The translations under genes and the position numbers were made by a program. Shown here piece by piece: positions 31,492 through 62,032 of a stretch of 64,000 nt of DNA (positions are counted from its first letter, which is position 1; each line of letters begins with the position of its first letter). Origin of the DNA: a virus. The DNA lies in IMG/VR virus record IMGVR_UViG_3300048839_000424, positions 1 to 64,000 of that record, one strand, 5' to 3'. Below the pieces are notes generated by a model. That model did not search any database and was not told the DNA's origin. It saw nothing but the letters and a program-made list of their open reading frames with translations.

Positions 31492-31716
31492 ATGCGAGTG
31501 TACGTAAATCTCGACCCACATACACAAGAGGAAGATGTCGAAGCCATCCGTTCGGATTTGGCTCTGAATATGCGAAATGAGTATCCTCATGTGAGTATAG
31601 ATGTTGGTATTGGATCGGCATTTTCAGTATCCTTTATTGGAGTCCCTGAGAAACTCAAAGCGGAAATCTATCTACTGATCAATAGTTACTTTCATGGCGA
31701 AGAAGACGACCTCTAA
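31492..31716 (+). CDS. Hypothetical protein
   Basis: 74-aa ORF just after the terminator, overlapping the start of the chaperonin gene. Confidence 0.55.
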   Translation: MRVYVNLDPHTQEEDVEAIRSDLALNMRNEYPHVSIDVGIGSAFSVSFIGVPEKLKAEIYLLINSYFHGEEDDL

Positions 31717-33247
31717 AAAAGTCCACCACGGATTGCAAGCAAGAAAAGGGCTACTGAAAGGTGCCCTTGATTTGTCACGTCTCGTAGGGGTTACATACGG
31801 CCCCTACGGTCGTAATGTCGTTCTTGACCGTCCCGTAGGGATTCTATCTACCAAGGATGGCGTCACCGTTGCTTGGGAATACGAACCTCAAGACCCGGTA
31901 GAACGCATGGGAGTTCGAATCGTACAGGAGGCGTGCTCGAAAGTCTCCAAGTCCGCTGGAGATGGGACAACAAGTACGGCGGTTCTGATCGGAGCTATCT
32001 TGCGAGAAGCCCATAAATGGGTCGTGGCAGGAAAAGACCCTATGCTCATCGCTCAAGAGATGCAGACGTTCGTGCAGGAGAGCCTGGAGGAGATGTTGAA
32101 TCTCTGGAAACGTGATGTAAGCACGGACACGGACCTACTAACCGTTGCATTAAGAGCCTGTAACGGAGATAGGGAACTAGCAACGGCGTTGGTTCAGGTC
32201 ATGGGCAAGATCGGAACGAAAGGCGTCGTTGTTCTGGAAGAAGGAAAATCCCGAGAGATCGAGATGGTTTTCAAGCAAGGGTTAGAAACTGACAGAGGTT
32301 GGGAGAGTTCGGATTTTTGTCCCTCGGATGACAGTAAGGTGTTTTTCGAGTTGCCCTTGGTCGCTCTGGTAGATGACGTGTTGGAGAAAGCCGAGCAGGT
32401 AGTTCCTATCCTCGAAGAAGCCTCCCAGTTTCCGCATCCTTTGGTGATCGTGTCCAAGGGCATGTACGGGGATGCGTTGAAAACACTCCTCATGAACCAA
32501 GAAACGGTGAAGTCCTGTGGGGTTCGTTGCATGGGACATCATGAGTTCATGAGAACACATTTAGAGGATTTAGCGGCGATATCGGGAGCAACCGTGTGGG
32601 CTAAAGAGTTGGGGGAATATAAGGCGGAGTATCTAGGTTCTGTTCAAACGGTCACGGTCAAGAAGGAGTCCTCGACATTCGTTGCTTTCCCTGATAAAAA
32701 TGAGCAAGTAGCGATGAGAATCCGTCAACTGGAGAATCAACTCGTAAGCACGGAGAGTGTTTTCGAGCAAGATAAGCTCAAGGAGAGAATCGCCAAACTT
32801 TCGGATGGGTTTTGTCTTTTGAGAGTCGGTGGGGATACGGAGTTAGAGATCAAAGAACGTCGTGGAAGATTGGAGGATGCTTTGTTTTCCATGAGATTAG
32901 CGGTAGAGCATGGGGTGGTTCCGGGGGGTGGGCTTACCTTTTTCAAGGTTGGTCAGTTGTTGGAGGATGCGGATAGCATTGGAGAGCGGATACTATCTGT
33001 GGCTTTGAAGGAACCATTCCGCAAGATTTACAGTAATGGTGGTAAGAGTCCTCGCGTGTTAGAGGCTCAAATGGAGTATGTTCCAGTAGACTCTTGGGTA
33101 GGGTATACTCTTGATGGGATACGGGATGTGTCTCAAGGTAAGGGATTGTTAGATTCGGCATCCTCTGTGTTAGAGGTGATTCGAGTTTCTGTTTCGACCG
33201 CGAGTACTATTCTTACCTCAGAGGTTTCGATTACGAGTATCAAATGA
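31694..33247 (+). CDS. groEL: Phage-encoded GroEL-like chaperonin
   Basis: TYGPYGRNV, TKDGVTVA, AGDGTTS, KLKERIAKL, RLEDAL and GVVPGGG motifs; divergent, lacks the GGM tail. Confidence 0.93.
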   Translation: MAKKTTSKKVHHGLQARKGLLKGALDLSRLVGVTYGPYGRNVVLDRPVGILSTKDGVTVAWEYEPQDPVERMGVRIVQEACSKVSKSAGDGTTSTAVLIGAILREAHKWVVAGKDPMLIAQEMQTFVQESLEEMLNLWKRDVSTDTDLLTVALRACNGDRELATALVQVMGKIGTKGVVVLEEGKSREIEMVFKQGLETDRGWESSDFCPSDDSKVFFELPLVALVDDVLEKAEQVVPILEEASQFPHPLVIVSKGMYGDALKTLLMNQETVKSCGVRCMGHHEFMRTHLEDLAAISGATVWAKELGEYKAEYLGSVQTVTVKKESSTFVAFPDKNEQVAMRIRQLENQLVSTESVFEQDKLKERIAKLSDGFCLLRVGGDTELEIKERRGRLEDALFSMRLAVEHGVVPGGGLTFFKVGQLLEDADSIGERILSVALKEPFRKIYSNGGKSPRVLEAQMEYVPVDSWVGYTLDGIRDVSQGKGLLDSASSVLEVIRVSVSTASTILTSEVSITSIK

Positions 33248-34297
33248 GTGACAAATACAAAATCATACACGGAAATATGCTTGAAGTGTTGAAAACACTT
33301 CAAGAAAATAGCATCGACGCCATCGTTTGTGATCCACCCTATGAAATCAATTTCATGGGCCGAGGTTGGGACAAATCCGGCATCGCATTCCAAAAAGAAA
33401 CATGGGCTGAATGTTTAAGAGTATTGAAGCCGGGAGGCTATTTAGTAGCATTTGGAGCGGCGCGAACGATGCATCGCATCACATGCGCGATTGAGGATGC
33501 CGGTTTCGAAATTCGAGACACGTTGCAGTGGGTTTTTGGAAATGGGTTTCCCAAGTCGCTGGACGTTGGTAAAGCTATTGCGAAACGTGCAGGCGGCGAA
33601 ATCGAAGCGCGTGCAGCTATCGAGTGGATGAAGCGCGAACGGGAGAGGTTGGGTCTTTCCCGTGCAGCTCTTGAAGTCCGCATTTTCGGGCGCTGTGATG
33701 GCAACGTGAGGAACTGGGAGGACGCCATTTCGCTACCAAGGCCGGGGCTTTGGCCGCAGATTCGCGCGGCACTCGGGCACGGTGCGACGCTGTTCGACGC
33801 TGTGATGGAGAGGGGTGACGAAAAGGTAGGTGAGACAACCGGATCTTATGGGTATCAAGCTGACGGGTCTAGGTGGAAAAAGCCACGCGAGTTGCGAGAG
33901 CCGAACACAGAAGCAGCGAAAACCTGGCACGGCTACGGCACCGCACTAAAACCAGCGCACGAGCCGATCACGCTGGCCCGAAAGCCCTTACAGGGCACGG
34001 TCGCCGCGAACGTGGCGAAGTGGGGAACGGGCGGGATTGACGTTGACGGGTGTCGGGTCGGGGAGAGCAAGCGCGTGCCTGGTAACGCTAGCTGTGCTAG
34101 CGAGTATAAAGTGGGGCACATCGCAGAGGGTCACTACCTCAAGGGGCTAAGGTATCTAGCGGAAGGTGAGAGTTCCGGTAACGGTCCCAACGTAGGCCGC
34201 TGGCCGCCGAACCTCATCATCGACGACGGCGCGGGCGAGGATCGCCCATGCTGAGGGAGAGATTTCGTTAGAGGATTTGAATGAGTTATTCGGATGA
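33244..34297 (+). pseudogene. Beta-class DNA amino-methyltransferase with XRE-HTH insertion, internally deleted and frameshifted
   Basis: ORF 33244..34254 has DPPY, GFPKS, GTALKPAHEPI and GRWPPNL but no FxGxG; the C-terminus ARARIAHAEGEISLEDLNELFG* continues in the +1 frame at 34229-34297. Confidence 0.75.
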
Positions 34298-34590
34298 GGA
34301 TTGTATCAGTGATAAGGAAGCCCTTTGAGGGATCGACAACGCAAAACGTGTTGGTTCATCATGTCTCGTGTATCAACATTGACGGGACCACCCATCAAAC
34401 TCACGGTGCGGGAAGCAACGGGATTTATGGGAAGTATGCTGCCATTCAAAGCAACAAAACACGAGGACAGGAACTTGGCCGTTGGCCAGCAAACTTGATT
34501 TTGAGCTACCCAGAGGGTGTTGAGACATTGAATCAACAAACAGGGTTGGAGTACAATGGGGCAAGGTTCTTCAGGAATGTTCTGCTATGA
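34294..34590 (+). CDS. Stand-alone MTase middle module (copy 1)
   Basis: MRIVSVIRKPFEGS..INIDG..GRWPANLIL..GARFF, homologous to the internal segment of 33244 and to 44433..45041; ATGA overlaps at both ends. Confidence 0.7.
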   Translation: MRIVSVIRKPFEGSTTQNVLVHHVSCINIDGTTHQTHGAGSNGIYGKYAAIQSNKTRGQELGRWPANLILSYPEGVETLNQQTGLEYNGARFFRNVLL

Positions 34591-36066: not shown

Positions 36067-39000
36067 ATGGATGAGGCATTAAAAGTAGCGTATGAGAAAT
36101 TGAAAGAGATCCGGGGTCGCAAGGATCTCGCCCTCAAACCCAACAAGTACCTCAAGGACACCTTTACGGGATTTGATGGGCAGGAGTATCCGTTCAAGCT
36201 ACGGTACTACCAAGTCCAAGGGGTTCTTCACATGGTTGTGATGAATCGTTTTCTTCTTGGGGACGACACCGGCACAGGAAAGTGCCAGCCGTATGATTCT
36301 CTTGTTCTGACTGACAGGGGTCTCCTAAAGATGGGGGAAATCGAAGATTGGTCAGACATGACACCTGATAGCTTTCGCCCTATGAGCAAAAGCCTTCATG
36401 TGTTAGTAGATGGGGAAAAACTCCCCATCAAGAGCTTTTACTATGGTGGGGTCAAGTCTACGGTTACGGTCCATACTAGGTATGGGTTTAAAAACACTGG
36501 GTCACAAGTTCACCCAATGTTAGTTCTTCGGGATGGTTCCCATCAATGGGTGCAGGCTAAAGATCTGATTGAGGGGGACTATCTTTGTATTGAGAGACGT
36601 GAGATGTCCTTCCCCGAGAGTGAGCCCAAGCTAATCGGGAAAGGCCCCTTGGAAGAGGTAACACCTGATTTTGCTCGATTTGTGGGTTACTACATTGGAC
36701 GAGGTACTCTAATAGCTAGAGACCAGATAAGTGTCTCCCAGTACCCAGTGAACCCCCCCGAGGTGCTTGCAGACATTATCCGTGTTATGGGTTCAGTTTT
36801 CAATAAGGTTCCCTCACATCTTAAGGGAATAGACTTGAGTGTCTGTGACACGAGAGCACGACGGTGGTTGGTTGAAAATGGTATGGGTTATCTGAAATCT
36901 GCATACCGAGACATTCCTGACTGTATTCTCCAGGCTTCAAAAACTAGCACTCAAGAGTTTTTACGAGCCTTTTTTGAGGGAGCGGGGCACGTGGATAAGT
37001 CCATCGAACTTACCACCACATCAAAAACACTAGGGGAGCAGCTACAAGTCCTACTCCTGAGATTTGGTGTAGTAGCTAAGAGAGAAAAGGTCTATAGTCA
37101 AGGGGTCTATGGTCAAGAGGGTCATGTTTATTGGCGCCTGACTATATGTGATAGAGAAGCCGAAATCTTTCGTGACCAGATTGGGTTTGTGTCCTCTCGA
37201 AAAAAGGAGGCTTTAAATGCACTCGTCGATTGCAGTACGCCTCTTTTGAACACGTCGTATTTTTACGACCCTGTTGTAGAGATAGAACAAGGGGAAGAAG
37301 AGGTTTTTGACATTGAAGTGGATGACCCTCGTCATTGTTTCGTCAGCAATGGGTTTGTCAATCACAATACTGCGATGGCTATTTCATCCTATGCCTACGT
37401 CTTAGACAAAGAGCCGAATACGAAAGCAGTAGTGCTTACGAACAAGTCCGTGGTTGGTCAATGGGCCTTGGAATTCGAGAAGTTCACGAAACCGGGGATG
37501 ATTCGAGTCATCCAAGTAAGTGGAACCCCAAAGAAGCGGGAAGCCGCTTATGAGGAGTTCAAGAATAGTCAAGGTCCAACCGTGATGATCATGGGATATG
37601 CGACTGCGCGACAGGATGTCAAACAGCTTCAAACCATCAAGGACTACATTTTGATCACGGACGAAGCGAGTGCCTACAAGAACCCTTCCTCCCAGATTCA
37701 CCAAGTCGTTCGGTTCATGGCGAATCAACAGGCGAAGCGCGTCTGGGCTCTCACAGCAACCCTGATCAAGAACAATCTAGTCGAGGGGTATGGGATCTAT
37801 TCAGTCCTGTGTCCGGGATTGTTCCCCCCAACGAAAAATGCGTTCATCAACTCGTATGCAATCACGAGGATGCAGAAAATCGCGGGCTCTAATCGCCAAG
37901 TCCCGGTCATTGTAGGATATCGGAAGGACCACATTGAGAACTTCCGTAACAAAATTGACCCCTTCTTCCTGTCTCGGTCCAAGATGGACGTGGCTTCGGA
38001 ACTTCCCGTGTTGACGATTAGGGAGGACAAGGTAGCGTTGACGCCCGAGCAACAGACGAAATACCAGGAGGCTTTGGATGGTCTCCTAGAGATTGATACG
38101 ACGGGTGAACAGAAGGAGACGACAAAACTCACGAGTCTAATCTACTGCCAACAAATCGTAGACCACCCGGACTTGATTGACTGTGAGGGGGGCTCGTACA
38201 AGATGGACCACTTGTTCGACATTCTCACGGAGGGCGATTTGGCAGGTGAGAAGGTCATTGTGTTCTCGCGGTTCCGCAAGATGATCGACCTCCTGGAGAA
38301 AGAGGCGAAGAAAAAGAAGATCACATCGGTGAGAATCACTGGTGCTGAAACCAAGGAGGAGGTGCGAAAGGAAGCGATGCAAAAGTTCCAGGATCCAAAC
38401 TCTGATGTTCAGGTCTGCTTTATTACTACAGCGGCAGCAGAGGGAATTAACCTCCAAGCGGCGAAAGCCATCGTTTTCTTCGACTCTCCTTGGTCCGCTG
38501 GAGATTACCTTCAGTGTTTAGATGAGGATACAGAAATATTGACTCAAAGAGGTTTTGTGGGTCGTACCTCTATTAAAGAGGATGATTTAGTTGCTGCAAT
38601 GAACACTCAAACCTCTGAAATTGAATGGCAGCCGATTCGTTCTATTACTGATCGTCCACGAGCGCAAGACGAACAAATGTATGAAGTCTCTACGAGACAT
38701 GTAAATATACGTGTCACAGGTGGACATCGTATGTTGTATAGAAGAAAAACGCTTAGAAACAACGTAGCGGTTTGGCCTATGGGGTGGGAAATTGAAACCG
38801 CTGAACAAATGGCAGTAGAGAAAACTCATTATCAAATCCCTGCCGCTGGTGAACAAAATTCAAAGGGGTTACCTCTCACTCAAGATCAACTTGAGTTTAT
38901 AGGTTGGTTCTTGTCTGACGGTTCCCTTAACAAATCAAACCATCAATTGGTAATTTCGCAAGCAATACATCAACCTCAGATTGTAGATTTACGGCGATGC

Positions 39001-39822
39001 ATTGAAAATTGTGGGTTTGATTGGAGCGAGTACAACCGAGATCCCAAAATGACTAAAGGATTTCCAAATGGTAAACCTCAAATAGTCTTCTCTATCCCCA
39101 AAGGAACACAAAACGGCACTCGTGCAAGGAAAGGATGGAAAGAACTAGAACCTTACCTTGACAAAGAGTTGTCACCCTTGTTAGAGGATGTAACCCCCGA
39201 ACAATTAAGTGCCCTGCTCCGAGGGTTGCATCTAGGGGATGGGAGTAAATATAGAGGTGACAAGTGGAATCAAGCCTCTTATCACATTTTCACTGGAAGA
39301 AAGGTTTTTGCCGAAAGACTACAGAGCTTGTGTGTTAGACGCGGTTTTCGTTGTAATCTCTCTATTCGACAGGCTGCACCTGGAAGAAAAGAAGGGTACA
39401 CACTACATATAAAAAAGACTAATGCGTGGTCTCTATGTGGAAATAAAAAAATGATAGGGCGCTCTCATATGTCCCCTTCCAAAAACATAGAACATGAGAG
39501 AGTATGGTGTGTTGAAAATGATTTGGGTACGCTCGTAACACGTCGTCGTGGAAAAGTAGCTGTTGTAGGAAATTGTATTGGGCGAATGATTCGCATTGGA
39601 AGTCAGCATGATCGTTGCTATGCGATTCACTTGGTCGCTTCGGGTACGATTGATGAGGATGTCATTGTGACCTTGAAGAAGAAGATGAAACTCGTAGAGA
39701 AAATCATGGGCAAGAGGTTGAAGGGTGAGAAGGATCAGGATGCCGTCATCGAGGCGGAAAACGACATCTCTGACCTATTTGATTCCGTCCGTGCGAATGC
39801 TCGAACTCGTAAGTACAAGTGA
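36067..39822 (+). CDS. SNF2-family (SF2) helicase/ATPase containing two inteins
   Basis: LRYYQ, LGDDTGTGK|T (motif I), DEAS (II), LTAT (III), KVIVFS (IV), AEGINLQ (V), Q|CIGRMIRIG (VI); spliced product about 536 aa. Confidence 0.93.
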   Translation: MDEALKVAYEKLKEIRGRKDLALKPNKYLKDTFTGFDGQEYPFKLRYYQVQGVLHMVVMNRFLLGDDTGTGKCQPYDSLVLTDRGLLKMGEIEDWSDMTPDSFRPMSKSLHVLVDGEKLPIKSFYYGGVKSTVTVHTRYGFKNTGSQVHPMLVLRDGSHQWVQAKDLIEGDYLCIERREMSFPESEPKLIGKGPLEEVTPDFARFVGYYIGRGTLIARDQISVSQYPVNPPEVLADIIRVMGSVFNKVPSHLKGIDLSVCDTRARRWLVENGMGYLKSAYRDIPDCILQASKTSTQEFLRAFFEGAGHVDKSIELTTTSKTLGEQLQVLLLRFGVVAKREKVYSQGVYGQEGHVYWRLTICDREAEIFRDQIGFVSSRKKEALNALVDCSTPLLNTSYFYDPVVEIEQGEEEVFDIEVDDPRHCFVSNGFVNHNTAMAISSYAYVLDKEPNTKAVVLTNKSVVGQWALEFEKFTKPGMIRVIQVSGTPKKREAAYEEFKNSQGPTVMIMGYATARQDVKQLQTIKDYILITDEASAYKNPSSQIHQVVRFMANQQAKRVWALTATLIKNNLVEGYGIYSVLCPGLFPPTKNAFINSYAITRMQKIAGSNRQVPVIVGYRKDHIENFRNKIDPFFLSRSKMDVASELPVLTIREDKVALTPEQQTKYQEALDGLLEIDTTGEQKETTKLTSLIYCQQIVDHPDLIDCEGGSYKMDHLFDILTEGDLAGEKVIVFSRFRKMIDLLEKEAKKKKITSVRITGAETKEEVRKEAMQKFQDPNSDVQVCFITTAAAEGINLQAAKAIVFFDSPWSAGDYLQCLDEDTEILTQRGFVGRTSIKEDDLVAAMNTQTSEIEWQPIRSITDRPRAQDEQMYEVSTRHVNIRVTGGHRMLYRRKTLRNNVAVWPMGWEIETAEQMAVEKTHYQIPAAGEQNSKGLPLTQDQLEFIGWFLSDGSLNKSNHQLVISQAIHQPQIVDLRRCIENCGFDWSEYNRDPKMTKGFPNGKPQIVFSIPKGTQNGTRARKGWKELEPYLDKELSPLLEDVTPEQLSALLRGLHLGDGSKYRGDKWNQASYHIFTGRKVFAERLQSLCVRRGFRCNLSIRQAAPGRKEGYTLHIKKTNAWSLCGNKKMIGRSHMSPSKNIEHERVWCVENDLGTLVTRRRGKVAVVGNCIGRMIRIGSQHDRCYAIHLVASGTIDEDVIVTLKKKMKLVEKIMGKRLKGEKDQDAVIEAENDISDLFDSVRANARTRKYK
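36283..37368 (+). mobile_element. Intein 1 (362 aa) in helicase Walker A, degenerate LAGLIDADG endonuclease
   Basis: CQPYDSLV...GFVNHN|T; endonuclease blocks FVGYYIGRG and FLRAFFEGAG lack the usual acidic residues. Confidence 0.9.
38515..39573 (+). mobile_element. Intein 2 (353 aa) in helicase motif VI, with LAGLIDADG endonuclease
   Basis: CLDEDTEILT...VTGGHR...VVGN|C; FIGWFLSDG and LLRGLHLGDG; AT-richer than the flanks. Confidence 0.9.
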
Positions 39823-40711: not shown

Positions 40712-42273
40712 AGATTTTACTTCGATCCGTATTCATTGTCAATGCGAGTGACAGTGAGCAGTTGTTTCTCCAGAATTACCATGCCTTGGTTGAGTCCGGG
40801 CTTGGTTTTGACATGCTGGAGGACATCAATATTTGGAAGTTCATTCAGGATTTCTATCAGGGGCATGGTCACCTGCCTACACTCCAGACGATTCGTTCTC
40901 ACTTCGAGCGCGTTCAGGAGCTAGAAGTTGTTGACCGTCTTGAACGCTTGGCGATGGAGTCCCCGAAAACTCGTGGTGACTTTATTTCGTTCTTGGAGAC
41001 TCAGGCGGAAGACCGTCGTGTCAAAATCGTCATGGAACTTGCCAAGGAAATGGCGACCATCGCCCAAACGGGTATCGACGTAAAGGACAAGGGCGGGAAG
41101 AACTCCAAGAAGTTCCTTGGGGCCGTAGATGCCATCCGGTGGGTTCTCGATCGTTCGCATGAGCTAGTCTCTCCGACGCTGGGAAGTCGTCTCTCCGGCA
41201 ATGTGGCGACCGATGGGGAGACCTTCATCACCCGGTATGAGCGCGTCAAATCGGACCCACAGTTTGGGATTGGGTGTTATACGGGGATTCGACAGGTAGA
41301 CGATGCCTTGAAAGGGGCAAAGCGGTACGAGCTTTGGATTCACGCAGGATTCACGGGTTCGTTGAAGTCTAGTCTTGCTCTCCAGTGGGCCTACAATCAA
41401 ATGGTCTACTACCGCAATTCGACCCTGTATTTTTCGTTGGAGATGCCTTACATTCAGTGCATGAACATGCTCTATGCGATGCACACGGCACATGAAAAGT
41501 TCGCACAGATTCGAGCGCAGTTGGGGATTCAAGATATCGGGCTCGACTACGAGCGGATGAAAAATGGTGTCCTAGCTCCCCATGAGGAGAAGTTCCTGTT
41601 CGATTACGTAGTTCCCGATTTCAACAAAAAATCCACGGTACCGGCGACGGGTCCATATCCCGTAGAGGCTCATGAGTATGGGGATATCTACATCGAGGTT
41701 GCTGACCCTGACAAAACGGACTTCACGGTTTTGGAGCTACGAGCCAAGGCGGAGTTGATTTATTCCAAAACGCCGTTCAAGATGGTCGTGGTGGACCATG
41801 TGGGTTTGATGTCACCACGGGAGCGATATGGGTCTACTACGGAGAAGATCAATGAGGTAGTTCGAGACTTGAAAAAACTAGCCATGAGTTTCAACCGGGG
41901 TATGGGTATTGCGGTCGTTGGGTTGGCTCAGTTATCTCGTGAGGGGTATCGAGCCGCTGAAAAGAACGGTGGTAAGTACAACTTGACTCACTTGAGTTAT
42001 GCCAACGAGATTGAGCGTTCCGCTGACATTGTGACGGCGACTTGGATTGATGATGACCTGAAAAAAATCAACCGTGGTATTATTCAGTGTTTGAAGTCTC
42101 GTGACCAGGCACCATTTGAACGATGCCCTCTTCGGGTAGAGTTCTCATGTCGTCGAATCACAACGGACAATACGTCCATTGATGAGATTGAGAACAAAAT
42201 TCAAGCAAAGCGGGGGGACATAGACAAGATCAAACCCCACAAGTCGAAAGTACCTGACCTTGGAGACATATGA
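40708..42273 (+). CDS. dnaB: DnaB-like replicative helicase
   Basis: AGFTGSLKS (variant Walker A), FSLEMP, VVDHVGLM, LAQLSR, EIERSADIV, KSRD. Confidence 0.9.
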   Translation: MKILLRSVFIVNASDSEQLFLQNYHALVESGLGFDMLEDINIWKFIQDFYQGHGHLPTLQTIRSHFERVQELEVVDRLERLAMESPKTRGDFISFLETQAEDRRVKIVMELAKEMATIAQTGIDVKDKGGKNSKKFLGAVDAIRWVLDRSHELVSPTLGSRLSGNVATDGETFITRYERVKSDPQFGIGCYTGIRQVDDALKGAKRYELWIHAGFTGSLKSSLALQWAYNQMVYYRNSTLYFSLEMPYIQCMNMLYAMHTAHEKFAQIRAQLGIQDIGLDYERMKNGVLAPHEEKFLFDYVVPDFNKKSTVPATGPYPVEAHEYGDIYIEVADPDKTDFTVLELRAKAELIYSKTPFKMVVVDHVGLMSPRERYGSTTEKINEVVRDLKKLAMSFNRGMGIAVVGLAQLSREGYRAAEKNGGKYNLTHLSYANEIERSADIVTATWIDDDLKKINRGIIQCLKSRDQAPFERCPLRVEFSCRRITTDNTSIDEIENKIQAKRGDIDKIKPHKSKVPDLGDI

Positions 42274-42875
42274 ACCTGACATTAAAACACGGTGATTGCG
42301 TAGAGCGATTGAAAGAAATCGAGTCGAACTCCGTAGATGCGGTCATTTGCGATCCGCCCTATGATATCGCGTTCATGTCTCGAAAATGGGATGATGAGAA
42401 CACGTTGACGAACGAGGCGATCTGGCGCGAGTGTTACCGGATTTTGAAGCCAGGGGGTGAGATTCAAGCCTTTGCGGCAACAAGAACCTTTCATCGGTTA
42501 GCGAGGACGTTCAAGAACATTGGGTTTGAGGGTATGCGATTAAAAGCCTTCACCTATGGGAGTGGATTTCCGAAATCTACGAATATATCGAAGCAGATTG
42601 ACAAACGAGCCAAGGCGGAGAGGAAGGTCGTGGGGTTCAAAAAAGGGGTTGGTGGTCAGAACTTGAATGACCTCGTGAACAACCGGGATGAGATCCGTAG
42701 TACGGATCAGGAAGGTGGTAAGGGGGTTGGAGCGTATGGGACGGGAGCGAAGCAAGTCGCAGTAGATGTACCTATCACGGAACCAGCGACACCGGAAGCC
42801 AAGCTCTGGGACGGGTATGGTACAGCCTTGAAGCCCGCATGGGAACCTATTGTCGTGGCCAAGAAACCTCTGTGA
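42270..42875 (+). CDS. Beta-class MTase N-terminal (catalytic DPPY) half
   Basis: HGDC, VICDPPY, ILKPGG, GSGFPKS, ends GTALKPAWEPIVVAKKPL*; no SAM-binding motif; GGAG RBS and ATGA overlap with dnaB. Confidence 0.8.
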   Translation: MNLTLKHGDCVERLKEIESNSVDAVICDPPYDIAFMSRKWDDENTLTNEAIWRECYRILKPGGEIQAFAATRTFHRLARTFKNIGFEGMRLKAFTYGSGFPKSTNISKQIDKRAKAERKVVGFKKGVGGQNLNDLVNNRDEIRSTDQEGGKGVGAYGTGAKQVAVDVPITEPATPEAKLWDGYGTALKPAWEPIVVAKKPL

Positions 42876-42887
42876 GTGATATAAAAA

Positions 42888-43958
42888 ATGAGCGAGAATA
42901 ATATAAAATCCCCATTCCCATATTTCGGCGGTAAGAGATTGATTGTAGATATGGTTTGGCAGCGCCTCGGAAAGCCAAAACAGTACATTGAACCATTCTG
43001 CGGAAGCGCGGCTATGCTGCTCGGTGCTCCGTCTCCGGCATCTCTGGAGGTGATCTGCGACGGGTCCGGGTTCATTGCAAATTTTTGGCGCGCAGCAAAG
43101 CACCAGCCCGCCGCTGTTGCTGAACATGCCGATTACATTGTAAGCCACATCGACCTCGGAGCGCGGCATCGGTGGCTGATGGATCAGCGCGACCGCATCG
43201 GAGAAATCTTGCAAGACCCCGATCACCCAGGCGATGCGAAGGTCGCGGGGTGGTGGCTATGGGGCCAGTGTTTATGGATCGGTAGTGGCTGGTGCGATTG
43301 GGACAAGACGGGACAGATCCCGCACGTCAGCGACGCCGGGAGGGGCGTGCAGGCGATCGGCAAGATCCCGCACGTCAGCGACGCCGGGTGTGGCGTGCAG
43401 GCGATCGGCCAGATCCCGCACGTCAGCGACGCCGGGAGGGGCGTGCAGGCGATCGGCAAGATCCCGCACGTCAGCGACGCCGGGTGTGGCGTGCAGGCGA
43501 TCGGCCAGATCCCGCACGTCAGCGACGCCGGGATGGGCGGCCTCATGACCAGTTCGGGCCGCGCCGCGTGGGTCGCCCTGCACGCACTCGCGGACAGGCT
43601 GGAGCGATGCCGGGTCATTCACGGAGACTGGTCGCGCGCTATGAATCACCATTATGGCGGGAACAACACAGCGGTGTTCCTTGACCCGCCATATGTCGCA
43701 TATGAGAATCTCTACGGCGTAAAACATCCGGTAGCACTTGATGTCGCAGAGTGGGCCAGGAAGCACGCTCATCTTCGCGTTGCTCTGTGCGGGCACATCG
43801 GAGACTACGAAATGCCGGGGTGGGACGCCGTGCCGTGGGAAAGGTCGCGATTGACATACGGCGGGGCATCGACCAAGGCGAGCGAGTGCATATGGTTCTC
43901 ACCTGCATGTTTTCCACCACCAGATGAATCGAAGGATTTGAACGAGTTATTCGGATGA
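42888..43958 (+). CDS. Dam/D12-class N6-adenine DNA methyltransferase with tandem repeats
   Basis: SPFPYFGGKR, YIEPFCGSAA (motif I), FLDPPY (motif IV): alpha-class order; ends DLNELFG. Confidence 0.88.
   Translation: MSENNIKSPFPYFGGKRLIVDMVWQRLGKPKQYIEPFCGSAAMLLGAPSPASLEVICDGSGFIANFWRAAKHQPAAVAEHADYIVSHIDLGARHRWLMDQRDRIGEILQDPDHPGDAKVAGWWLWGQCLWIGSGWCDWDKTGQIPHVSDAGRGVQAIGKIPHVSDAGCGVQAIGQIPHVSDAGRGVQAIGKIPHVSDAGCGVQAIGQIPHVSDAGMGGLMTSSGRAAWVALHALADRLERCRVIHGDWSRAMNHHYGGNNTAVFLDPPYVAYENLYGVKHPVALDVAEWARKHAHLRVALCGHIGDYEMPGWDAVPWERSRLTYGGASTKASECIWFSPACFPPPDESKDLNELFG
43311..43532 (+). repeat. In-frame 48-bp tandem repeat, 4.6 copies, alternating A-B-A-B-A'
   Basis: Encodes G(Q/K)IPHVSDAG(R/C)GVQAI; units start at 43311, 43359, 43407, 43455 and 43503. 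Confidence 0.95.
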
Positions 43959-43986
43959 TTCTCATCCGTAATCCATTAGGGGGTCC

Positions 43987-44436
43987 GTGACTTCCGAGTT
44001 GCTGATTTGTATAGGAGGAATTAGAACTCCTCCTGTGGATGTGGAATCCTTGGTCAAATGTCTTGGAGTATCTGTAATTTACAAGGACAGTGTAGAGGTT
44101 TCACGACTAGAGGTTAATGGTAACCAGGCTACTATTGTTGTGAACTCAAATGCTTCCAAGCAACGCCAGAGATTTGCTTTAGCGCATGAACTTGGGCATT
44201 TGTTGAGACATGACCTTACGAAACCAACATGCCATTATGATTTCAGAGGGCATGCTGCGATAGAGCGAGAGGCTAATATTTTTGCAGCCTCTCTTCTTAT
44301 GCCAAGGTCTATGCTGGGGTTGTATCTTGGGTACACAAGCCTTGATCTCGACCAGATCGGCCGGGTTTTTGATGTACCACGAACTACTTGTGAGTACCGA
44401 GTAGCGCACTTTCTCCGTGGGTATCGTGATTTATGA
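43987..44436 (+). CDS. ImmA/IrrE-family Zn metallopeptidase
   Basis: PPVDV, RQRFALAHELGH (HExxH), EREANIFAASLLMP. Confidence 0.9.
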   Translation: MTSELLICIGGIRTPPVDVESLVKCLGVSVIYKDSVEVSRLEVNGNQATIVVNSNASKQRQRFALAHELGHLLRHDLTKPTCHYDFRGHAAIEREANIFAASLLMPRSMLGLYLGYTSLDLDQIGRVFDVPRTTCEYRVAHFLRGYRDL

Positions 44437-45041
44437 GAGTAGTATCAGTGATAAGGAAGCCCTTTGAAGGGTCTGCGACTCAAAACATCGTAATCAATGA
44501 ATGTGGTGGGTTGAACATTGATGCCACTCGCATTGGAGGAGAACCTTCACCGTCAGTAGATAGACGTAAATATTCTCCAAAAGAGTGCGTTGGCGCTACA
44601 GGATGGACAACGCCAGCACGTCCAGCATCGTACAATGAACAACGCGCAGGTGAGCAGAGTGGCCGATGGCCAGCGAATCTGATGTTAGTACATACGCCTT
44701 TGTGTGTCTTTGAGGGTCATGTAAAGCAGAAGGGGTACATGATTAATCGTTGGACTGACGGTGCGAAACCTTTCGGTGGGGGAGCGGGACATGACTATGC
44801 GGGACAGCAGCAAAACGATCTGAATGTAGAGTCGTGGAAATGTCATCCGACTTGTCCTGTTTCCCATATGGACTCTCAAAGTGGTGTTTCTAAATCCTCC
44901 GGTGGAAGAATAGGTAACGCTCAGGGGGTATACTCGAACCAAGGTCGCACTGGATGGGGTACAGGACATCAAGCGGGAGACCCTGGGTACGGAGATAGTG
45001 GTGGTGCATCACGGTATTTCAAGCAGGTAAGGAGCAAATAA
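44433..45041 (+). CDS. Stand-alone MTase middle module (copy 2)
   Basis: MRVVSVIRKPFEGS, GGLNIDATRI, GRWPANLML, CHPTCPV, YGDSGGASRYF. Confidence 0.75.
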   Translation: MRVVSVIRKPFEGSATQNIVINECGGLNIDATRIGGEPSPSVDRRKYSPKECVGATGWTTPARPASYNEQRAGEQSGRWPANLMLVHTPLCVFEGHVKQKGYMINRWTDGAKPFGGGAGHDYAGQQQNDLNVESWKCHPTCPVSHMDSQSGVSKSSGGRIGNAQGVYSNQGRTGWGTGHQAGDPGYGDSGGASRYFKQVRSK

Positions 45042-45938
45042 ATGTCACAAGAACCGGAAGAACTAAAATCCTATCTCCAACGCTTGATCTCCCCACCGGA
45101 ACAAGTTGGCCCTATCGTCATCGTCGAGGACGACCTCTCCCAAGTGGACTTTGCCTCCTATGCGGATTCCTCAGTCCACGGATTGATCACAAAGGGGAAC
45201 CCAGAGAAGTATTTCGACGAAATCGACCGTATTCTGCGTCCCGGTGCCCACATTCTCCTGATCTCGGAGCAAGATGACATCAACTTCGAGGGCACTTGTG
45301 CTTTGGAGGATAGGGGGTACGAAGTCCGTGACAGCATTTGCCTCTTGGACTCTCCAGCGGATGAGTTCCTGTACACGACGAAAGCCTCCAAGTCTGAAAG
45401 GAACGCAGGTGTTCCTGAATACACCAATACAGTAGAACAAGCCGTGATTAAAGACGGTCTATCTGATGACCTCTATGCCGATATTCTCTTCCACTTGGAG
45501 GAAAATGGGTTCGATTCCAGTAGCGAGGATGCCTACAAGTCTCTGAAGGGGAAGAAAATCGACCTGAAGCTCATTAGCAAGGAGTACTTGGAGCACTTCG
45601 ACATTGTAAATACGGTGACTCAAGTCGTGCAGAATAATCACCCAACGGTCAAACCGATCTCTATTATGGAATTCTTGATGCAAGACTTGCCCCAGGGGGG
45701 TATTGTTGTAGACCCTTTCATGGGGTCTGGGACAACGGGTATTGCTTGTGTCAGAACGAACCATCAATTCGTTGGAATTGAGCGCGAGGCGGAGTATATT
45801 CGTATTGCTGATGCTAGAGTTCGGCATTTCATTGCCGAGAAGCTAGATTCGGTTGTCTTTGGTATAGTTTCGGAGGCACCCGCATCGCCATCCCCCATGT
45901 CTCAAATCGAGGATGACCTGAATGAGTTATTCGGATGA
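45042..45938 (+). CDS. Beta-class MTase SAM-binding half with degenerate catalytic region (no DPPY)
   Basis: Own AAGGAG RBS; KASKSER, NHPTVKP, DPFMGSGTTG, FVGIE; LITKGNP stands where IVCDPPY is expected; ends DLNELFG. Confidence 0.8.
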   Translation: MSQEPEELKSYLQRLISPPEQVGPIVIVEDDLSQVDFASYADSSVHGLITKGNPEKYFDEIDRILRPGAHILLISEQDDINFEGTCALEDRGYEVRDSICLLDSPADEFLYTTKASKSERNAGVPEYTNTVEQAVIKDGLSDDLYADILFHLEENGFDSSSEDAYKSLKGKKIDLKLISKEYLEHFDIVNTVTQVVQNNHPTVKPISIMEFLMQDLPQGGIVVDPFMGSGTTGIACVRTNHQFVGIEREAEYIRIADARVRHFIAEKLDSVVFGIVSEAPASPSPMSQIEDDLNELFG

Positions 45939-46489
45939 GAAAATCTATGAGAGAACCCACGACAGTACCAAGAGTCATTGCATTGACTGGACCCTTGGGC
46001 GTAGACAAAACTTCTGTTGCGAAGGCTTTACAGGGTCTACTGAAATCTAAGGGCAAAGAAACTGTGCTTGAGTCATTCACTGCACCTGTCCATGCGATTT
46101 TGTCCTCTTTGAACCTAGAGAATAATTGGGAGGTGAAGAAAGCAGTAATCGCTGCAATTCAAAAAAGCATGGGTTCTTGGGCATTGAATACTGCTCTGGA
46201 GAACAGGCTAACAGAAGATGGTGGGTTTAGTCTACACTTGATGCCAGGAGTCCTTCTCGACGATCTTCGCACGTATGAAGAGACGGAGTGGGTAAGGGAG
46301 TACCACGGTGCTATTGTGGAGATCACACACGAGGGTATCGAATACTCCGAAGATTGTGACCCAAATCAGTTTAACTTCGGTCAGACTTTTCAAGGTAGTG
46401 TAGATGCCACTGGGAAAACACCAAAGGAAGTAGCCTTAGAGGTGTTTGATTTGGTCAAGAGACGGGATTACTTGGTCAAGAGAATATGA
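45935..46489 (+). CDS. dNMP kinase-like P-loop protein
   Basis: IALTGPLGVDKT (variant P-loop), SFTAPV, LLDDLRTYEE, similar to phage deoxynucleoside monophosphate kinases. Confidence 0.55.
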   Translation: MRKSMREPTTVPRVIALTGPLGVDKTSVAKALQGLLKSKGKETVLESFTAPVHAILSSLNLENNWEVKKAVIAAIQKSMGSWALNTALENRLTEDGGFSLHLMPGVLLDDLRTYEETEWVREYHGAIVEITHEGIEYSEDCDPNQFNFGQTFQGSVDATGKTPKEVALEVFDLVKRRDYLVKRI

Positions 46490-60825: not shown

Positions 60826-61250
60826 AGACTCAGTACACATTCGTGATTTCCGGGGGTGATCCTTTGACGTTACAGTTGAGGGGGTGTCCACCTATGCGAT
60901 ATGAGGGTCCGGGGTCTACGGTGTTCCATGTCATTTGCACGCGGGAGGAAGCTCTTCATGTTGAGATGACTTTCAAGGAAGCCCACTGCAAGGTCGTTGT
61001 CCATACGCATGGGGAGACGGTCGAGCAGAAACAAATGAGGGTCAATCTTCTTGCATTACAGGGGGAGAACAGTTTTCCGACGAAAGACTGTCCCTCTTGC
61101 CCTTGGTTTGATCCCGAGATTTCAGGTCTCTGTGGGGCTGGTAAGACTGGGAGTGAGCAATACTCCGAAGCTGTGATTAAACATCAAATGAAGTCGGAGC
61201 GATTTAAGGACGCCTACAACAACTGCACATGGGACACGAAATCAAACTGA
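60822..61250 (+). CDS. Hypothetical Cys-containing protein
   Basis: 142 aa, ATGA overlap, CPSCPW..C motif. Confidence 0.55.
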   Translation: MKTQYTFVISGGDPLTLQLRGCPPMRYEGPGSTVFHVICTREEALHVEMTFKEAHCKVVVHTHGETVEQKQMRVNLLALQGENSFPTKDCPSCPWFDPEISGLCGAGKTGSEQYSEAVIKHQMKSERFKDAYNNCTWDTKSN

Positions 61251-62032
61251 CGCCCGCATTGGAGGGCCTGAAGGGGATGGATTCTTCAGTAGGGCTCGTA
61301 GTTACGGACCCACCTTACAACACGTTGGAAAAGTGGCGTGCTGTAGGGACGACGACCAGGCTTACCAAGTCGGATGCAAGTTCGAATGAATGGTTCCCTA
61401 CAGTTGACTTCGACTATTTAAAGGACGTGTTTCGAGAGTGCTACCGGGTATTGAAGCCCAATACTCACATGTACATCCTGTGCGATGAGGAGACGGCGGA
61501 TCACCTAAAACCCATCGTAGACGAGATTGGATTCAAACGGAAGAAGTCCTTGATTTGGCACAAGGTCGGTAAAAAAACCGACGTTCACTGTCCAAAATGC
61601 GGCACTTTTGTTCACACGACGAACAGCCCCGGTGCTCCAGGTATGGGTTATCCGTATCGATCATCGTATGAGATGATTCTCCTGTTGGAGAAGGGGAAGC
61701 GCCCTATGCCTACGGATTTGAGCGTTCGGAATGTGTTGAGTTTCCCGTACCTGAAGGGAAAGTCGTACTACCCTACGGAGAAGCCGGTAGACATGTTGGA
61801 GGTGTTTATCACTCAGAGTTCCAATCCTGGAGATTTAGTTCTTGACCCGTTTGCTGGAAGTGGTTCGACTGGTGTAGCAGCATACAATTTGGGACGAGAA
61901 TTCCTTGGGTTTGACGTGCAGGAGAGAAGCCTGGAGTATTTTTCATCTCGGTTGGGTGAGGTGTCTCTAGTATCCGATACGGAGGATACCAAGAGTGAGC
62001 CCAGCGTCTTTGACCTGTTTGGGGATGAATGA
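61229..62032 (+). CDS. Intact beta-class N4/N6 DNA methyltransferase
   Basis: VVTDPPY, CYRVLKP, YPTEKP, VLDPFAGSGSTG, FLGFD; ends SVFDLFGDE. Confidence 0.92.
   Translation: MGHEIKLTPALEGLKGMDSSVGLVVTDPPYNTLEKWRAVGTTTRLTKSDASSNEWFPTVDFDYLKDVFRECYRVLKPNTHMYILCDEETADHLKPIVDEIGFKRKKSLIWHKVGKKTDVHCPKCGTFVHTTNSPGAPGMGYPYRSSYEMILLLEKGKRPMPTDLSVRNVLSFPYLKGKSYYPTEKPVDMLEVFITQSSNPGDLVLDPFAGSGSTGVAAYNLGREFLGFDVQERSLEYFSSRLGEVSLVSDTEDTKSEPSVFDLFGDE

What the first reader, a model, noticed from the sequence alone, without database searches (positions are those of the whole stretch)
42270..45938. Naturally split, three-part beta-class DNA methyltransferase (A + B + C) interleaved with a Dam-like MTase and a protease
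Seen: A (42270..42875) has DPPY and stops at EPIVVAKKPL. B (44433..45041) begins at that same motif (VIRKPF) and runs to GGASRYF. C (45042..45938) resumes with FLYTTKASKSER, HPTVKP, DPFMGSG and FVGIE. Gene 33244 shows A and B contiguous in one polypeptide (EPITLARKPLQGTVAANV..GRWP), so the pieces tile one enzyme. Each piece has its own start signal (A: GGAG + ATGA with dnaB; B: ATGA; C: AAGGAG) and no internal stops. Established: beta-class MTases act as dimers, and two-chain C5 MTases (M.AquI, M.EcoHK31I) exist; I know of no described three-chain amino-MTase. Inference: a modular heteromeric MTase with alternative A (33244, 42270) and B (34294, 44433) subunits sharing one tagged SAM-binding subunit, used as a tunable anti-restriction or epigenetic system. 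This is the best candidate for a new system in the window.
Basis: partly seen in the sequence, partly recalled or inferred. Interest (0 to 1): 0.85.

Follow-up and report, generated by a model that had tools for sequence, protein, structure and literature searches.

The report
Three-part modular phage DNA methyltransferase
A fragment of a roughly 500-kb uncultured phage encodes one DNA-methylating enzyme as three separate proteins (catalytic half, DNA-reading module, cofactor-binding hub), a layout that many related phages keep and that may let one enzyme core mark several DNA motifs.

Summary
A (42270-42875), B (44433-45041) and C (45042-45938) are intact ORFs that cover the motifs of one beta-class (PF01555) amino-methyltransferase. 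A Dam-like MTase and an M78 peptidase lie between A and B.

The split is conserved, not decay:
- Free A, B and C proteins with the same ends are numerous in public data. DPPY is invariant in 43/43 free A, and FxGSG in all C.
- Twelve related viral loci show the same joints, often with several A and B genes per single C.
- B-C fusions are common.
- A 213-kb collinear relative has dnaB-A-(variable slot)-B-C at the same place.
- A ~92% identical strain lacks the 1561-nt Dam/M78 insert and has A overlapping B by ATGA.

The complex model (ipSAE 0.87, best control 0.45) pairs A's beta4 with C's beta1, which rebuilds the canonical fold.

- C carries its own conserved, DPPY-less N-half.
- B's loop (aa 37-77) is swapped between near-identical strains.

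C, the Dam-like MTase and a third MTase share a clamp-binding-like C-terminal tail.

I found no description in the papers searched. Earlier notes of this scan report the same system on at least eight other genomes. Methylation itself is untested.

The parts
42270..42875 (+). A: free catalytic N-half (strands beta4-beta7, DPPY at residues 28-31). It is translationally coupled to dnaB by an ATGA overlap.
   Evidence: Alignment A4 shows DPPY invariant in 43/43 free homologues, all ending at EP..V..KP. A positional orthologue follows dnaB in G001.
42876..44432 (+). Strain-specific 1561-nt insert in the A|B slot. It carries the Dam-like D12 MTase (42888-43958) and the M78/ImmA-like peptidase (43987-44436).
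   Evidence: A ~92% identical strain (run X7) joins 42870 directly to 44432. GC is 63-70% in the Dam-like gene against ~48% around it. Neither gene has a homologue in G001 or the other loci. Pfam families.
43311..43550 (+). In-frame 48-nt (16-aa) tandem repeat, about 5 copies, inside the Dam-like gene.
   Evidence: family D1.
44433..45041 (+). B: free middle (target-recognition-like) module. It starts with its own copy of the beta7 strand (VVSVIRKPF) and ends GGASRYFKQ. H87, C91, C137 and C141 are invariant.
   Evidence: No Pfam family and no PDB sequence relative.
44541..44663 (+). Hypervariable loop of B (aa 37-77), between NID..R and GRWPAN.
   Evidence: The loop is replaced in the 80%-identical relative P0002, while the flanks are ~94% identical. 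It is replaced by shorter letters in two contigs of run X7. The same loop type occurs in single-chain enzymes P0073 and P0112.
45042..45356 (+). Cn: conserved DPPY-less copy of the N-half at the start of the hub protein C (HGLITKGNP in place of DPPY).
   Evidence: phmmer finds 165 clusters at E<=1e-3, with Cn either at residue ~1 (free C) or at ~200 (B-C fusions). In the complex model it touches A residues 71-98.
45357..45938 (+). Cc: SAM-binding half of the hub C (FLYTTKASKSER, HPTVKP, DPFMGSG, FVGIE), followed by a variable linker and the C-terminal tail DDLNELFG.
   Evidence: Model contacts: C 221-224 with A 23-26, and C 243-247 with A 4-7.
33244..34254 (+). A1B1: a second DPPY N-half fused to the first part of a B module. 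It is truncated after GRWPPNL. Its 3' part has raised GC. Whether it works is uncertain.
   Evidence: It has no positional counterpart in G001.
34253..34297 (+). Out-of-frame remnant of a linker plus tail (EGEISLEDLNELFG*), in the +1 frame relative to 33244. Its TGA overlaps the ATG of B2.
   Evidence: (family D3). The same letters and the same frame occur in contigs of related strains (loose ends at 45912).
34294..34590 (+). B2: minimal free B module of 98 aa, with the same start (MRIVSVIRKPF) and end (GARFFRNVLL) as B.
   Evidence: (family D2).

Best explanation
A, B and C are subunits of one heteromeric beta-class DNA amino-methyltransferase. It is probably N6-adenine specific, judging from DPPY.

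- The hub C supplies the SAM-binding half (motif X, FxGSG, strands beta1-beta3). It also carries a vestigial N-half (Cn) that acts as a docking surface.
- A supplies the catalytic half (beta4-beta7 with DPPY). A's beta4 pairs in trans with C's beta1, which rebuilds the canonical Rossmann-like fold.
- B supplies the target-recognition module. It docks on A's GYGTALKP loop, and it is fused to C in many relatives.
- Different B modules, and perhaps different A modules, plugged into the same hub would give different sequence specificities.
- The acidic/hydrophobic C-terminal tail of the hub probably tethers the enzyme to a sliding clamp, so that nascent phage DNA is methylated at the fork.

Shown by computation: conservation of the split, the selection signature, B-C fusions, and the predicted A:C and A:B interfaces.
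Inferred: actual assembly, methyl transfer, the base and motifs targeted, the role of B's loop in specificity, and clamp binding.
For: 1. Conserved joints.
- 173 B-like proteins were found, mostly 140-220 aa with ~100% coverage. All start M-x-[IV]-x-x-[LVI]-x-RKP and end GGASR[FY]F.
- 2333 hits to A in the 110-352 aa range, with the top ~100 about 200 aa at 98-100% coverage. DPPY is invariant in 43/43 aligned.
- Free C proteins of 230-320 aa and ~490-aa B-C fusions are frequent.

2. Genomic context.
- Of 79 viral loci, 56 are single-chain A+B+Cc and 12 are split at the same joints. The split ones have 4-nt or 1-nt overlaps and variable order and copy number (A,B,C; B,A,C; B,A,B,C; Bx6,C,Ax2; Ax4,Bx5).

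3. Positional orthology.
- The collinear 213-kb relative G001 has dnaB-ATGA-A, a variable slot, then a fused B-Cn-Cc hub and an extra B.

4. A ~92% identical strain has A's stop overlapping B's ATG, without the insert.

5. Selection.
- dN/dS is 0.14-0.24 for A, 0.09-0.66 for B and 0.15 for C in the L010/L016/L018/L047 clade.

6. Complex model of C+B+A+SAM.
- ipSAE was 0.87, 0.87 and 0.88. Controls gave 0.00 and 0.00 with A replaced, and 0.45 with C replaced.
- That mark was reached by 58 of 80 solved complexes and 2 of 110 mismatched pairs.
- The runs agree in at least 69% of contacts, and the partner's pLDDT is at least 70.
- The tightest contacts are C I221-D224 with A D23-I26, C 243-247 with A 4-7, and B N28-I29 and P80-N82 with A 183-187.

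7. C alone and B alone fold poorly (pTM 0.44, pLDDT 56), as expected of obligate subunits.

8. B's loop (aa 37-77) is swapped between close relatives, while A is 99% and C 94% identical.
Against: - No methylation, binding or expression data exist for any member.
- The complex model is a split version of a fold solved many times as one chain (M.RsrI, CcrM, M.BceJIV). The A:C pass may therefore reflect likeness to those structures rather than real assembly. The calibration also did not include user alignments or a riding ligand.
- The hub carries its own N-half, which could in principle occupy the place given to A.
- The dS values are near saturation, so dN/dS is rough, and it was measured in a related clade, not on this window's genes.
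- A's Pfam score is only just above the cut-off (27.3 against 26.7).
- 33244 is truncated.
Confidence: 0.75

Rival explanations
1. The pieces are wreckage. A single-chain methyltransferase gene was broken by mobile-element insertions and recombination, and A, B and C are non-functional remnants.
For: - A foreign 1561-nt insert sits exactly between A and B.
- 33244 is truncated and has an out-of-frame tail remnant.
- The 26-nt tail repeat (D3) and the 54-nt B-start repeat (D2) show recombination among the MTase genes.
- Inteins and an HNH gene in this neighbourhood, here and in G001, show heavy traffic of mobile elements.
Against: - The same ends recur in hundreds of free homologues, and the catalytic and SAM motifs are invariant.
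- dN/dS is below 1.
- The genes overlap in the way of translationally coupled genes.
- The split persists across phages that are only 40-65% identical in protein sequence.
- The strain without the insert still has A and B as separate overlapping ORFs.
- The decay reading may hold for 33244 alone.
Confidence: 0.07
2. The subunits assemble, but not as a combinatorial DNA methyltransferase. For example, B+C could be a catalytically dead DNA-binding or regulatory protein with A acting elsewhere. Alternatively, the complex could modify RNA or protein, or serve as a decoy against host defence.
For: - C has a complete set of N-half-like and C-half elements without DPPY, and B-C fusions exist without A in the same chain.
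- Degenerate beta-class partners such as MettL14 and MTA9 are known to be non-catalytic (PMC7544214).
- Some beta-class enzymes act on RNA or ssDNA (PMC7544214).
Against: - Free A lacks any SAM-binding half, and it is found next to B/C in every split locus whose contig extends far enough.
- The model places A, not Cn, on C's beta1 edge.
- Single-chain relatives with the same three parts are ordinary phage DNA methylases by annotation.
Confidence: 0.12
3. The pieces are joined after transcription or translation into one chain, by an intron, a split intein, ribosomal frameshifting or hopping, or stop-codon read-through.
For: - B's TAA is directly followed in frame by C's ATG, and relatives have B-C fused, so loss or read-through of one stop would fuse them.
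- Inteins are active in this genome neighbourhood.
Against: - A and B each carry a copy of the same strand motif, so joining them would duplicate it.
- No intein blocks flank the joints.
- Gene order is permuted in relatives (B,A,C; B x6,C,A x2), which no linear joining explains.
- Each ORF has its own start, and C has a strong AAGGAG.
- Two in-frame stops (TGA, TAA) follow A.
Confidence: 0.04

Closest known systems
Single-chain phage beta-class N6/N4 amino-methyltransferases with the same middle module (Pfam PF01555, phrog_67). Examples are mycobacteriophage 'DNA methylase' genes and the 515-aa ORF of the uncultured 485-kb phage LR745208.1.
   Same: They have the same motifs in the same order when A, B and Cc are concatenated: DPPY ... 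GTALKP ... EPxxxxRKP, GTxAxN, GxLNID, GRWPAN, GGASRFF, FxYxxKAS..ER, HPTVKP, DPFxGSGTT. They show 28-47% identity to A and B.
   Different: They are one polypeptide with no Cn domain. Here there are three ORFs, with a duplicated beta7 strand at the A|B joint, extra free A/B copies, and a hub that carries a vestigial N-half.
M.AquI and M.EcoHK31I, natural two-polypeptide C5-cytosine methyltransferases (PMC3404938)
   Same: One methyltransferase fold is naturally encoded by separate polypeptides that must associate.
   Different: They are C5 enzymes with different chemistry and motifs. They have two chains, not three. They have no arrays of alternative subunits and no vestigial half-domain, and they are bacterial RM components rather than a phage kit.
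Type I methyltransferases (HsdM2HsdS) and Type IIB enzymes such as BcgI (PMC3874165, PMC4027205)
   Same: DNA specificity is carried by a separate, exchangeable subunit that plugs into a common catalytic core. This is the working analogy for B.
   Different: HsdM is a gamma-class, complete MTase, and HsdS has two TRDs with coiled coils. Here the catalytic fold itself is also cut in two, and B is unrelated to HsdS by sequence (no Pfam or PDB match).
Beta-class dimers with division of labour, or with a degenerate partner: EcoP15I Mod2, CcrM, MettL3-MettL14, ciliate MTA1-MTA9 (PMC7544214)
   Same: An active motif IV (DPPY/W) subunit works with a partner whose motif IV is eroded. Cn with HGxIxxGxP parallels the EPPL of MettL14.
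   Different: In those systems each partner is a whole MTase domain. Here the degenerate piece is only an N-half fused to the one SAM-binding half, which the model assigns to the other chain.
C-terminal sliding-clamp-binding peptides: the bacterial beta-clamp motif QL[S/D]LF (PMC3716654) and the acidic/hydrophobic C-termini of T4 gp43, gp33 and gp55 (PMC2988020)
   Same: A short hydrophobic/acidic peptide sits at the very C-terminus after a variable linker. Relatives end in DQLSLF, IQLPLF or GQVSLF, and this window has DLNELFG and SVFDLFGDE.
   Different: In the papers I searched I found no report of such a motif on a bacterial or phage DNA methyltransferase. Binding is untested, and no clamp gene lies on the fragments held.

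Membership tests
Beta-class amino-methyltransferase (Pfam PF01555 N6_N4_Mtase) | Catalytic motif IV, (D/S)PP(Y/F) | tested here: met
   A has DPPY at residues 28-31. It is invariant in 43/43 free A homologues.
Beta-class amino-methyltransferase (Pfam PF01555 N6_N4_Mtase) | SAM-binding motif I (FxGxG), preceded by motif X | tested here: met
   C has HPTVKP ... DPFMGSGTT. D224, P225, F226, G228, S229 and G230 are invariant in alignment A3.
Beta-class amino-methyltransferase (Pfam PF01555 N6_N4_Mtase) | Profile match above Pfam's gathering score | tested here: met
   C scores 63.7 bits and A 27.3 bits against a cut-off of 26.7. B has no match.
Beta-class amino-methyltransferase (Pfam PF01555 N6_N4_Mtase) | Motif order IV - TRD - X - I on one polypeptide | tested here: not met
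   The motifs lie on three ORFs, each with its own start and stop. In relatives the order of the ORFs is permuted.
Beta-class amino-methyltransferase (Pfam PF01555 N6_N4_Mtase) | SAM-dependent methylation of adenine N6 or cytosine N4 in DNA | not testable with these tools
   This needs expression and methylome sequencing.
Natural split C5 methyltransferases (M.AquI, M.EcoHK31I) | C5-MTase motifs (PC, ENV, etc.) divided over two polypeptides | tested here: not met
   The Pfam and PHROG matches are to amino-MTase families only. There are three chains, not two.
Type I-like MTase with a separate specificity subunit | HsdS-type specificity subunit and a complete gamma-class HsdM | tested here: not met
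   B has no Pfam family and no PDB sequence relative. The catalytic parts are PF01555, not N6_Mtase/HsdM.
Modular three-part phage MTase (the architecture seen here and in related loci) | Free A ending at EP..V..KP, free B from x-V-x-x-x-RKP to GGASRFF, and a hub made of Cn plus Cc | tested here: met
   The window's A, B and C align end to end with free homologues (alignments A4, A5, A3). The same layout occurs in L010, L016, L018 and L047.
Beta-clamp-binding proteins | QL[S/D]LF-type peptide at or near the C-terminus that binds the clamp's hydrophobic pocket | tested here: inconclusive
   The window's tails (DLNELFG, SVFDLFGDE) deviate from the consensus. Relatives carry the exact type (DQLSLF, IQLPLF). 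There is enrichment: 19/82 MTase ORFs against 14/881 background ORFs, p=2e-13. Binding was not tested.

The most novel reading that the evidence does not exclude
Huge phages carry a combinatorial, replisome-tethered methyltransferase kit.

- One hub (Cn+Cc), held on the sliding clamp by its C-terminal tail, accepts interchangeable catalytic halves (A) and recognition modules (B).
- The hypervariable loop of B (aa 37-77) sets the DNA motif.
- A few small genes would then protect nascent phage DNA against many restriction systems.
- Cassette and loop swaps between strains would re-tune specificity quickly.
Probability: 0.35. Interest if true: 0.88.

Novelty: new variant of a known kind. Interest (0 to 1): 0.74.

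Why it matters
If the subunits assemble as predicted, this is a natural three-chain amino-methyltransferase in which the catalytic fold itself is completed in trans and specificity is carried by swappable small proteins.

- It would explain how huge phages diversify DNA protection at low coding cost.
- It would give a natural scaffold for engineering programmable methyltransferases, because B modules and their 40-residue loop act as plug-in specificity elements.
- It would assign hundreds of unannotated 'hypothetical' proteins (free B, free A halves) to a function.
- The clamp-binding-like tail on MTases of two different classes suggests replication-coupled methylation in phages. That would be a bacterial-virus parallel to the recruitment of DNMT1 by PCNA.

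Tried and rejected
The contigs of the closest relatives (P0241, P0002, P0121) could not be fetched, and dN/dS could not be computed on this window's own genes.
- Single-protein scans for B found nothing in viral contigs and no relative in metagenome contigs. Alignment A1 was too diverse for pattern search, and the narrower A2 worked.
- Searches for a clamp gene (PF00712, PF09116) in G000-G003 found none. These records are only 15-40% complete, so this says nothing.
- No RNA holder was listed among the sequencing runs.
- AF2 of C alone: pLDDT 73.6, pTM 0.44. Foldseek hits to CcrM, M.BceJIV and M.RsrI came at TM ~0.2 only.
- AF2 of B alone: pLDDT 56, too poor for a fold search.
- The joint 43958->44442 with GGATT (runs X1, X2) is the paralogous tail-B2 junction of 34290-34310 laid at the wrong place. 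It is not a deletion.
- P0362, a 1309-aa protein with 17 'Cn-like' stretches, is a translated tandem repeat and a false hit.
- A programmed +1 frameshift joining 33244 to the tail remnant was considered. No slippery or prfB-like site is visible, so it is left open.
- The idea that the Dam-like/M78 genes belong to the system was rejected.
- Literature searches for a split or multi-subunit beta-class phage MTase, or for a clamp-binding MTase, found nothing relevant.

Full report
**What the window is.**
- The window is the first 64 kb of a 78-kb IMG/VR virus record that CheckV rates 15% complete, so it is a fragment of a phage of about 500 kb.
- It is collinear with a 213-kb record (G001, 40% complete) at 40-65% protein identity.

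**Check of the observation.**
- The ORFs, motifs and start signals are as described.
- A (42270-42875) has DPPY and ends WEPIVVAKKPL. Its ATG overlaps the dnaB stop.
- B (44433-45041) starts MRVVSVIRKPF and ends GGASRYFKQVRSK. Its ATG overlaps the stop of an M78 peptidase gene.
- C (45042-45938) starts right after B's TAA, behind AAGGAG, and holds FLYTTKASKSER, HPTVKP, DPFMGSG and FVGIE.
- Pfam places A on positions 1-73 and C on positions 33-219 of PF01555. B has no family. The interleaved genes are a D12-class MTase and an M78 peptidase.

- The pieces overlap, because both A and B carry the strand motif.
- C begins with a 105-residue degenerate copy of the N-half (Cn), with HGLITKGNP in place of DPPY.
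- 33244 stops after GRWPPNL and is followed by a tail coding sequence in the +1 frame.

**Is the split conserved?**
- A search with B returned 173 proteins. Most are 140-220 aa and cover the query end to end. All start M-x-[IV]-x-x-x-x-RKP and end GGASR[FY]F.
- A search with A returned 2333 hits in its length class. The best ~100 are about 200 aa. In an alignment of 43, DPPY is invariant and every chain ends at EP..V..KP.
- A search with C returned free C proteins of 230-320 aa and many ~490-aa proteins that are B fused to C in the order B-Cn-Cc.
- A search of 1.84 billion representatives with Cn alone gave 165 clusters (86 at E<=1e-10). Cn sits either at residue ~1 or at ~200.
- Cn never has DPPY, but it has its own conserved pattern, HG-h-h-x-x-G-x-P. 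It is therefore a maintained domain, not decay.

**Genomic context in relatives.**
- Of 79 viral loci found with a B profile, 56 encode the ordinary single-chain A+B+Cc enzyme and 12 are split at the same joints.
- The split loci show 4-nt or 1-nt overlaps between genes, and variable order and copy number:
  - A,B,C in L018.
  - B,A,C in L016.
  - B,A,B,C in L047 and L010.
  - Six B, one C and two A in L014.
  - Four A and five B in L013.
  - A, then a B-C fusion, then an extra B in L006 and L009.
- In G001, the A gene overlaps dnaB by ATGA exactly as here. It is followed by a slot holding an HNH endonuclease gene and an unknown ORF, then a fused hub (with an intein in HPT|VKP) and an extra B.

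**Evidence from other strains.**
- Contigs of an aquaculture metagenome run (X7, about 92% identical) join 42870 directly to 44432. There A ends ...KKPL with CTATGA, overlapping B's ATG.
- The 1561-nt Dam-like/M78 segment is thus a strain-specific insert. This fits its GC of 63-70% against 48% around it.
- The same run replaces nt 44541-44663 (B aa 37-77) by shorter sequence in two contigs.
- It also has about 420 extra nucleotides between B and C.
- Protein relatives tell the same story. A is 99% and C 94% identical to P0241 and P0121. B is only 80% identical to P0002, because that one loop is replaced while its flanks stay ~94% identical.
- This window's loop type recurs in the single-chain enzymes P0073 and P0112.

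**Selection.**
- In the L010/L016/L018/L047 clade, dN/dS is 0.14-0.24 for A, 0.09-0.66 for B and 0.15 for C.
- dS is near saturation, so these figures are rough.

**Structure.**
- C alone folds with pTM 0.44. It matches CcrM, M.BceJIV and M.RsrI only at TM ~0.2, so Cn and Cc are not packed as one canonical domain.
- B alone is mostly low-confidence, apart from a sheet around the invariant H87, C91, C137 and C141. It has no sequence relative in the PDB.
- The complex of C, B and A with SAM scored ipSAE 0.87, 0.87 and 0.88. Controls gave 0.00 and 0.00 with A replaced, and 0.45 with C replaced.
- That mark was reached by 58 of 80 solved complexes and 2 of 110 mismatched pairs. The runs agree in at least 69% of contacts, and the partner's pLDDT is at least 70.
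- The tightest contacts are:
  - C I221-D224 (the strand before DPFMGSG) with A D23-I26 (the strand before DPPY). This is the canonical beta1-beta4 pairing.
  - C 243-247 with A 4-7.
  - B's LNID and RWPAN with A's GYGTALKP loop.
  - Cn 78-114 touching A 71-98.
- Because these are halves of a fold solved many times as a single chain, the pass may reflect that likeness, and the calibration holds only roughly here. The model supports binding but does not show it.

**Mechanism proposed.**
- The hub C gives the SAM site and a docking surface (Cn).
- A completes the fold in trans and brings DPPY.
- B, often fused to the hub in relatives, brings target recognition through its variable loop.
- Several A and B genes per hub would give several specificities.
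- Assembly, activity, the base modified and the motifs are all inferred.

**The second cluster (33244-34590).**
- It has no positional counterpart in G001 and has raised GC in its 3' part.
- 33244 keeps DPPY but lacks the distal part of B.
- The tail remnant behind it is out of frame, and it is identical in frame in related strains, so it is not a sequencing error.
- B2 is a minimal B with the standard ends.
- A hub tail followed directly by a B gene is the normal layout in L006 and L009. The cluster therefore looks like a recombinant patch.
- B2 may be a working alternative module. 33244 is doubtful.

**C-terminal tails (side finding).**
- Three MTases of this phage end in an acidic/hydrophobic tail: the hub (DDLNELFG), the Dam-like alpha-class enzyme (KDLNELFG) and a single-chain PF01555 enzyme at 61229-62032 (SVFDLFGDE).
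- The first two, and the remnant at 34272-34297, share 26 nt at 88-96% identity.
- All 24 aligned hubs end in SLxDLFG-like or QVSLF-like tails.
- In the related loci, 19 of 82 MTase ORFs with a SAM-binding half carry a QLxLF- or LxxLF-type motif in their last 12 residues. The figures for comparison are 14 of 881 other ORFs, 0 of 15 free A and 0 of 24 free B (Fisher p=2e-13).
- Several tails match the beta-clamp consensus QL[S/D]LF exactly (PMC3716654). The form also resembles the clamp-binding C-termini of T4 gp43, gp33 and gp55 (PMC2988020).
- Clamp tethering is a hypothesis. No clamp gene lies on the fragments held.

**Comparison with what is known.**
- The closest relatives by sequence are single-chain phage beta-class MTases.
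- Natural split MTases described in the papers I could search are two-chain C5 enzymes (PMC3404938).
- Separate specificity subunits are known from Type I and IIB systems (PMC3874165, PMC4027205).
- Active/degenerate beta-class pairs are known from MettL3-MettL14 and MTA1-MTA9 (PMC7544214).
- I found no paper describing a multi-chain beta-class phage MTase or a clamp-binding MTase. The library does not hold most subscription journals.
- Earlier notes of this scan describe the same architecture on at least eight other genomes. They agree with what I tested here but are not independent evidence.

**Verdict.**
- The feature is real, conserved and apparently undescribed.
- It is a new quaternary architecture of a known enzyme family, and its function remains to be shown at the bench.

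Noticed in passing
window 45915-45938, 43935-43958, 34274-34297, 62003-62032: All three SAM-binding DNA MTases of this phage, which belong to two different classes, end in an acidic/hydrophobic tail (DLNELFG, DLNELFG, SVFDLFGDE). The tail resembles sliding-clamp-binding peptides. Relatives end in exact QL[S/D]LF-type motifs, and the motif is enriched in MTases (19/82 against 14/881, p=2e-13).
   Followed up: partly
window 34272-34297, 43933-43958, 45913-45938: The tail is conserved at the nucleotide level: 26 nt at 88-96% identity in otherwise unrelated genes, each time ending in GGATGA, where an ATG follows. This suggests recent recombination or a signal for coupled translation of the next ORF. 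After the Dam-like gene that ATG opens an 11-codon mini-ORF whose TGA overlaps the GTG of the M78 ORF.
   Followed up: partly
window 43311-43550: There is an in-frame 48-nt tandem repeat of about 5 copies (16-aa unit GQIPHVSDAGRGVQAI) inside the high-GC Dam-like MTase, between motif I and DPPY. Copy number could vary without breaking the frame.
   Followed up: no
window 36067-39822: The SNF2-type helicase ORF of 1251 aa appears to carry intein-like insertions. Its G001 counterpart aligns only in part.
   Followed up: no
L093 12113-14671 (G001 164113-166671): The fused hub of the collinear relative (852 aa) carries an intein-like insertion inside the HPT|VKP motif (NDHP-CLHPDD...MTHN-TCKPV). 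The slot between A and the hub holds an HNH endonuclease-like ORF. The MTase locus is a hot spot for mobile elements.
   Followed up: partly
window 31694-33247: A GroEL-like chaperonin ORF (517 aa) lies directly upstream of 33244, with an orthologue in G001.
   Followed up: no
L025 4827-7046: This locus shows another permutation of the kit. Two ~288-aa ORFs have a Cn-like N-terminal extension fused in front of B. They are followed by a free 178-aa Cc with tail NFGDLFG, so the hub is cut between B and Cc rather than before Cn.
   Followed up: no
L085 11216-11629 (G001): A 137-aa HTH (Xre-type) protein ends in VTLGELFGSDE, a tail like that of the MTases.
   Followed up: no
window 45935-46489: A 184-aa ORF overlaps C's stop by ATGA and has a P-loop-like GPLGVDKTS. 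It has no Pfam or PHROG family and no counterpart in G001.
   Followed up: no
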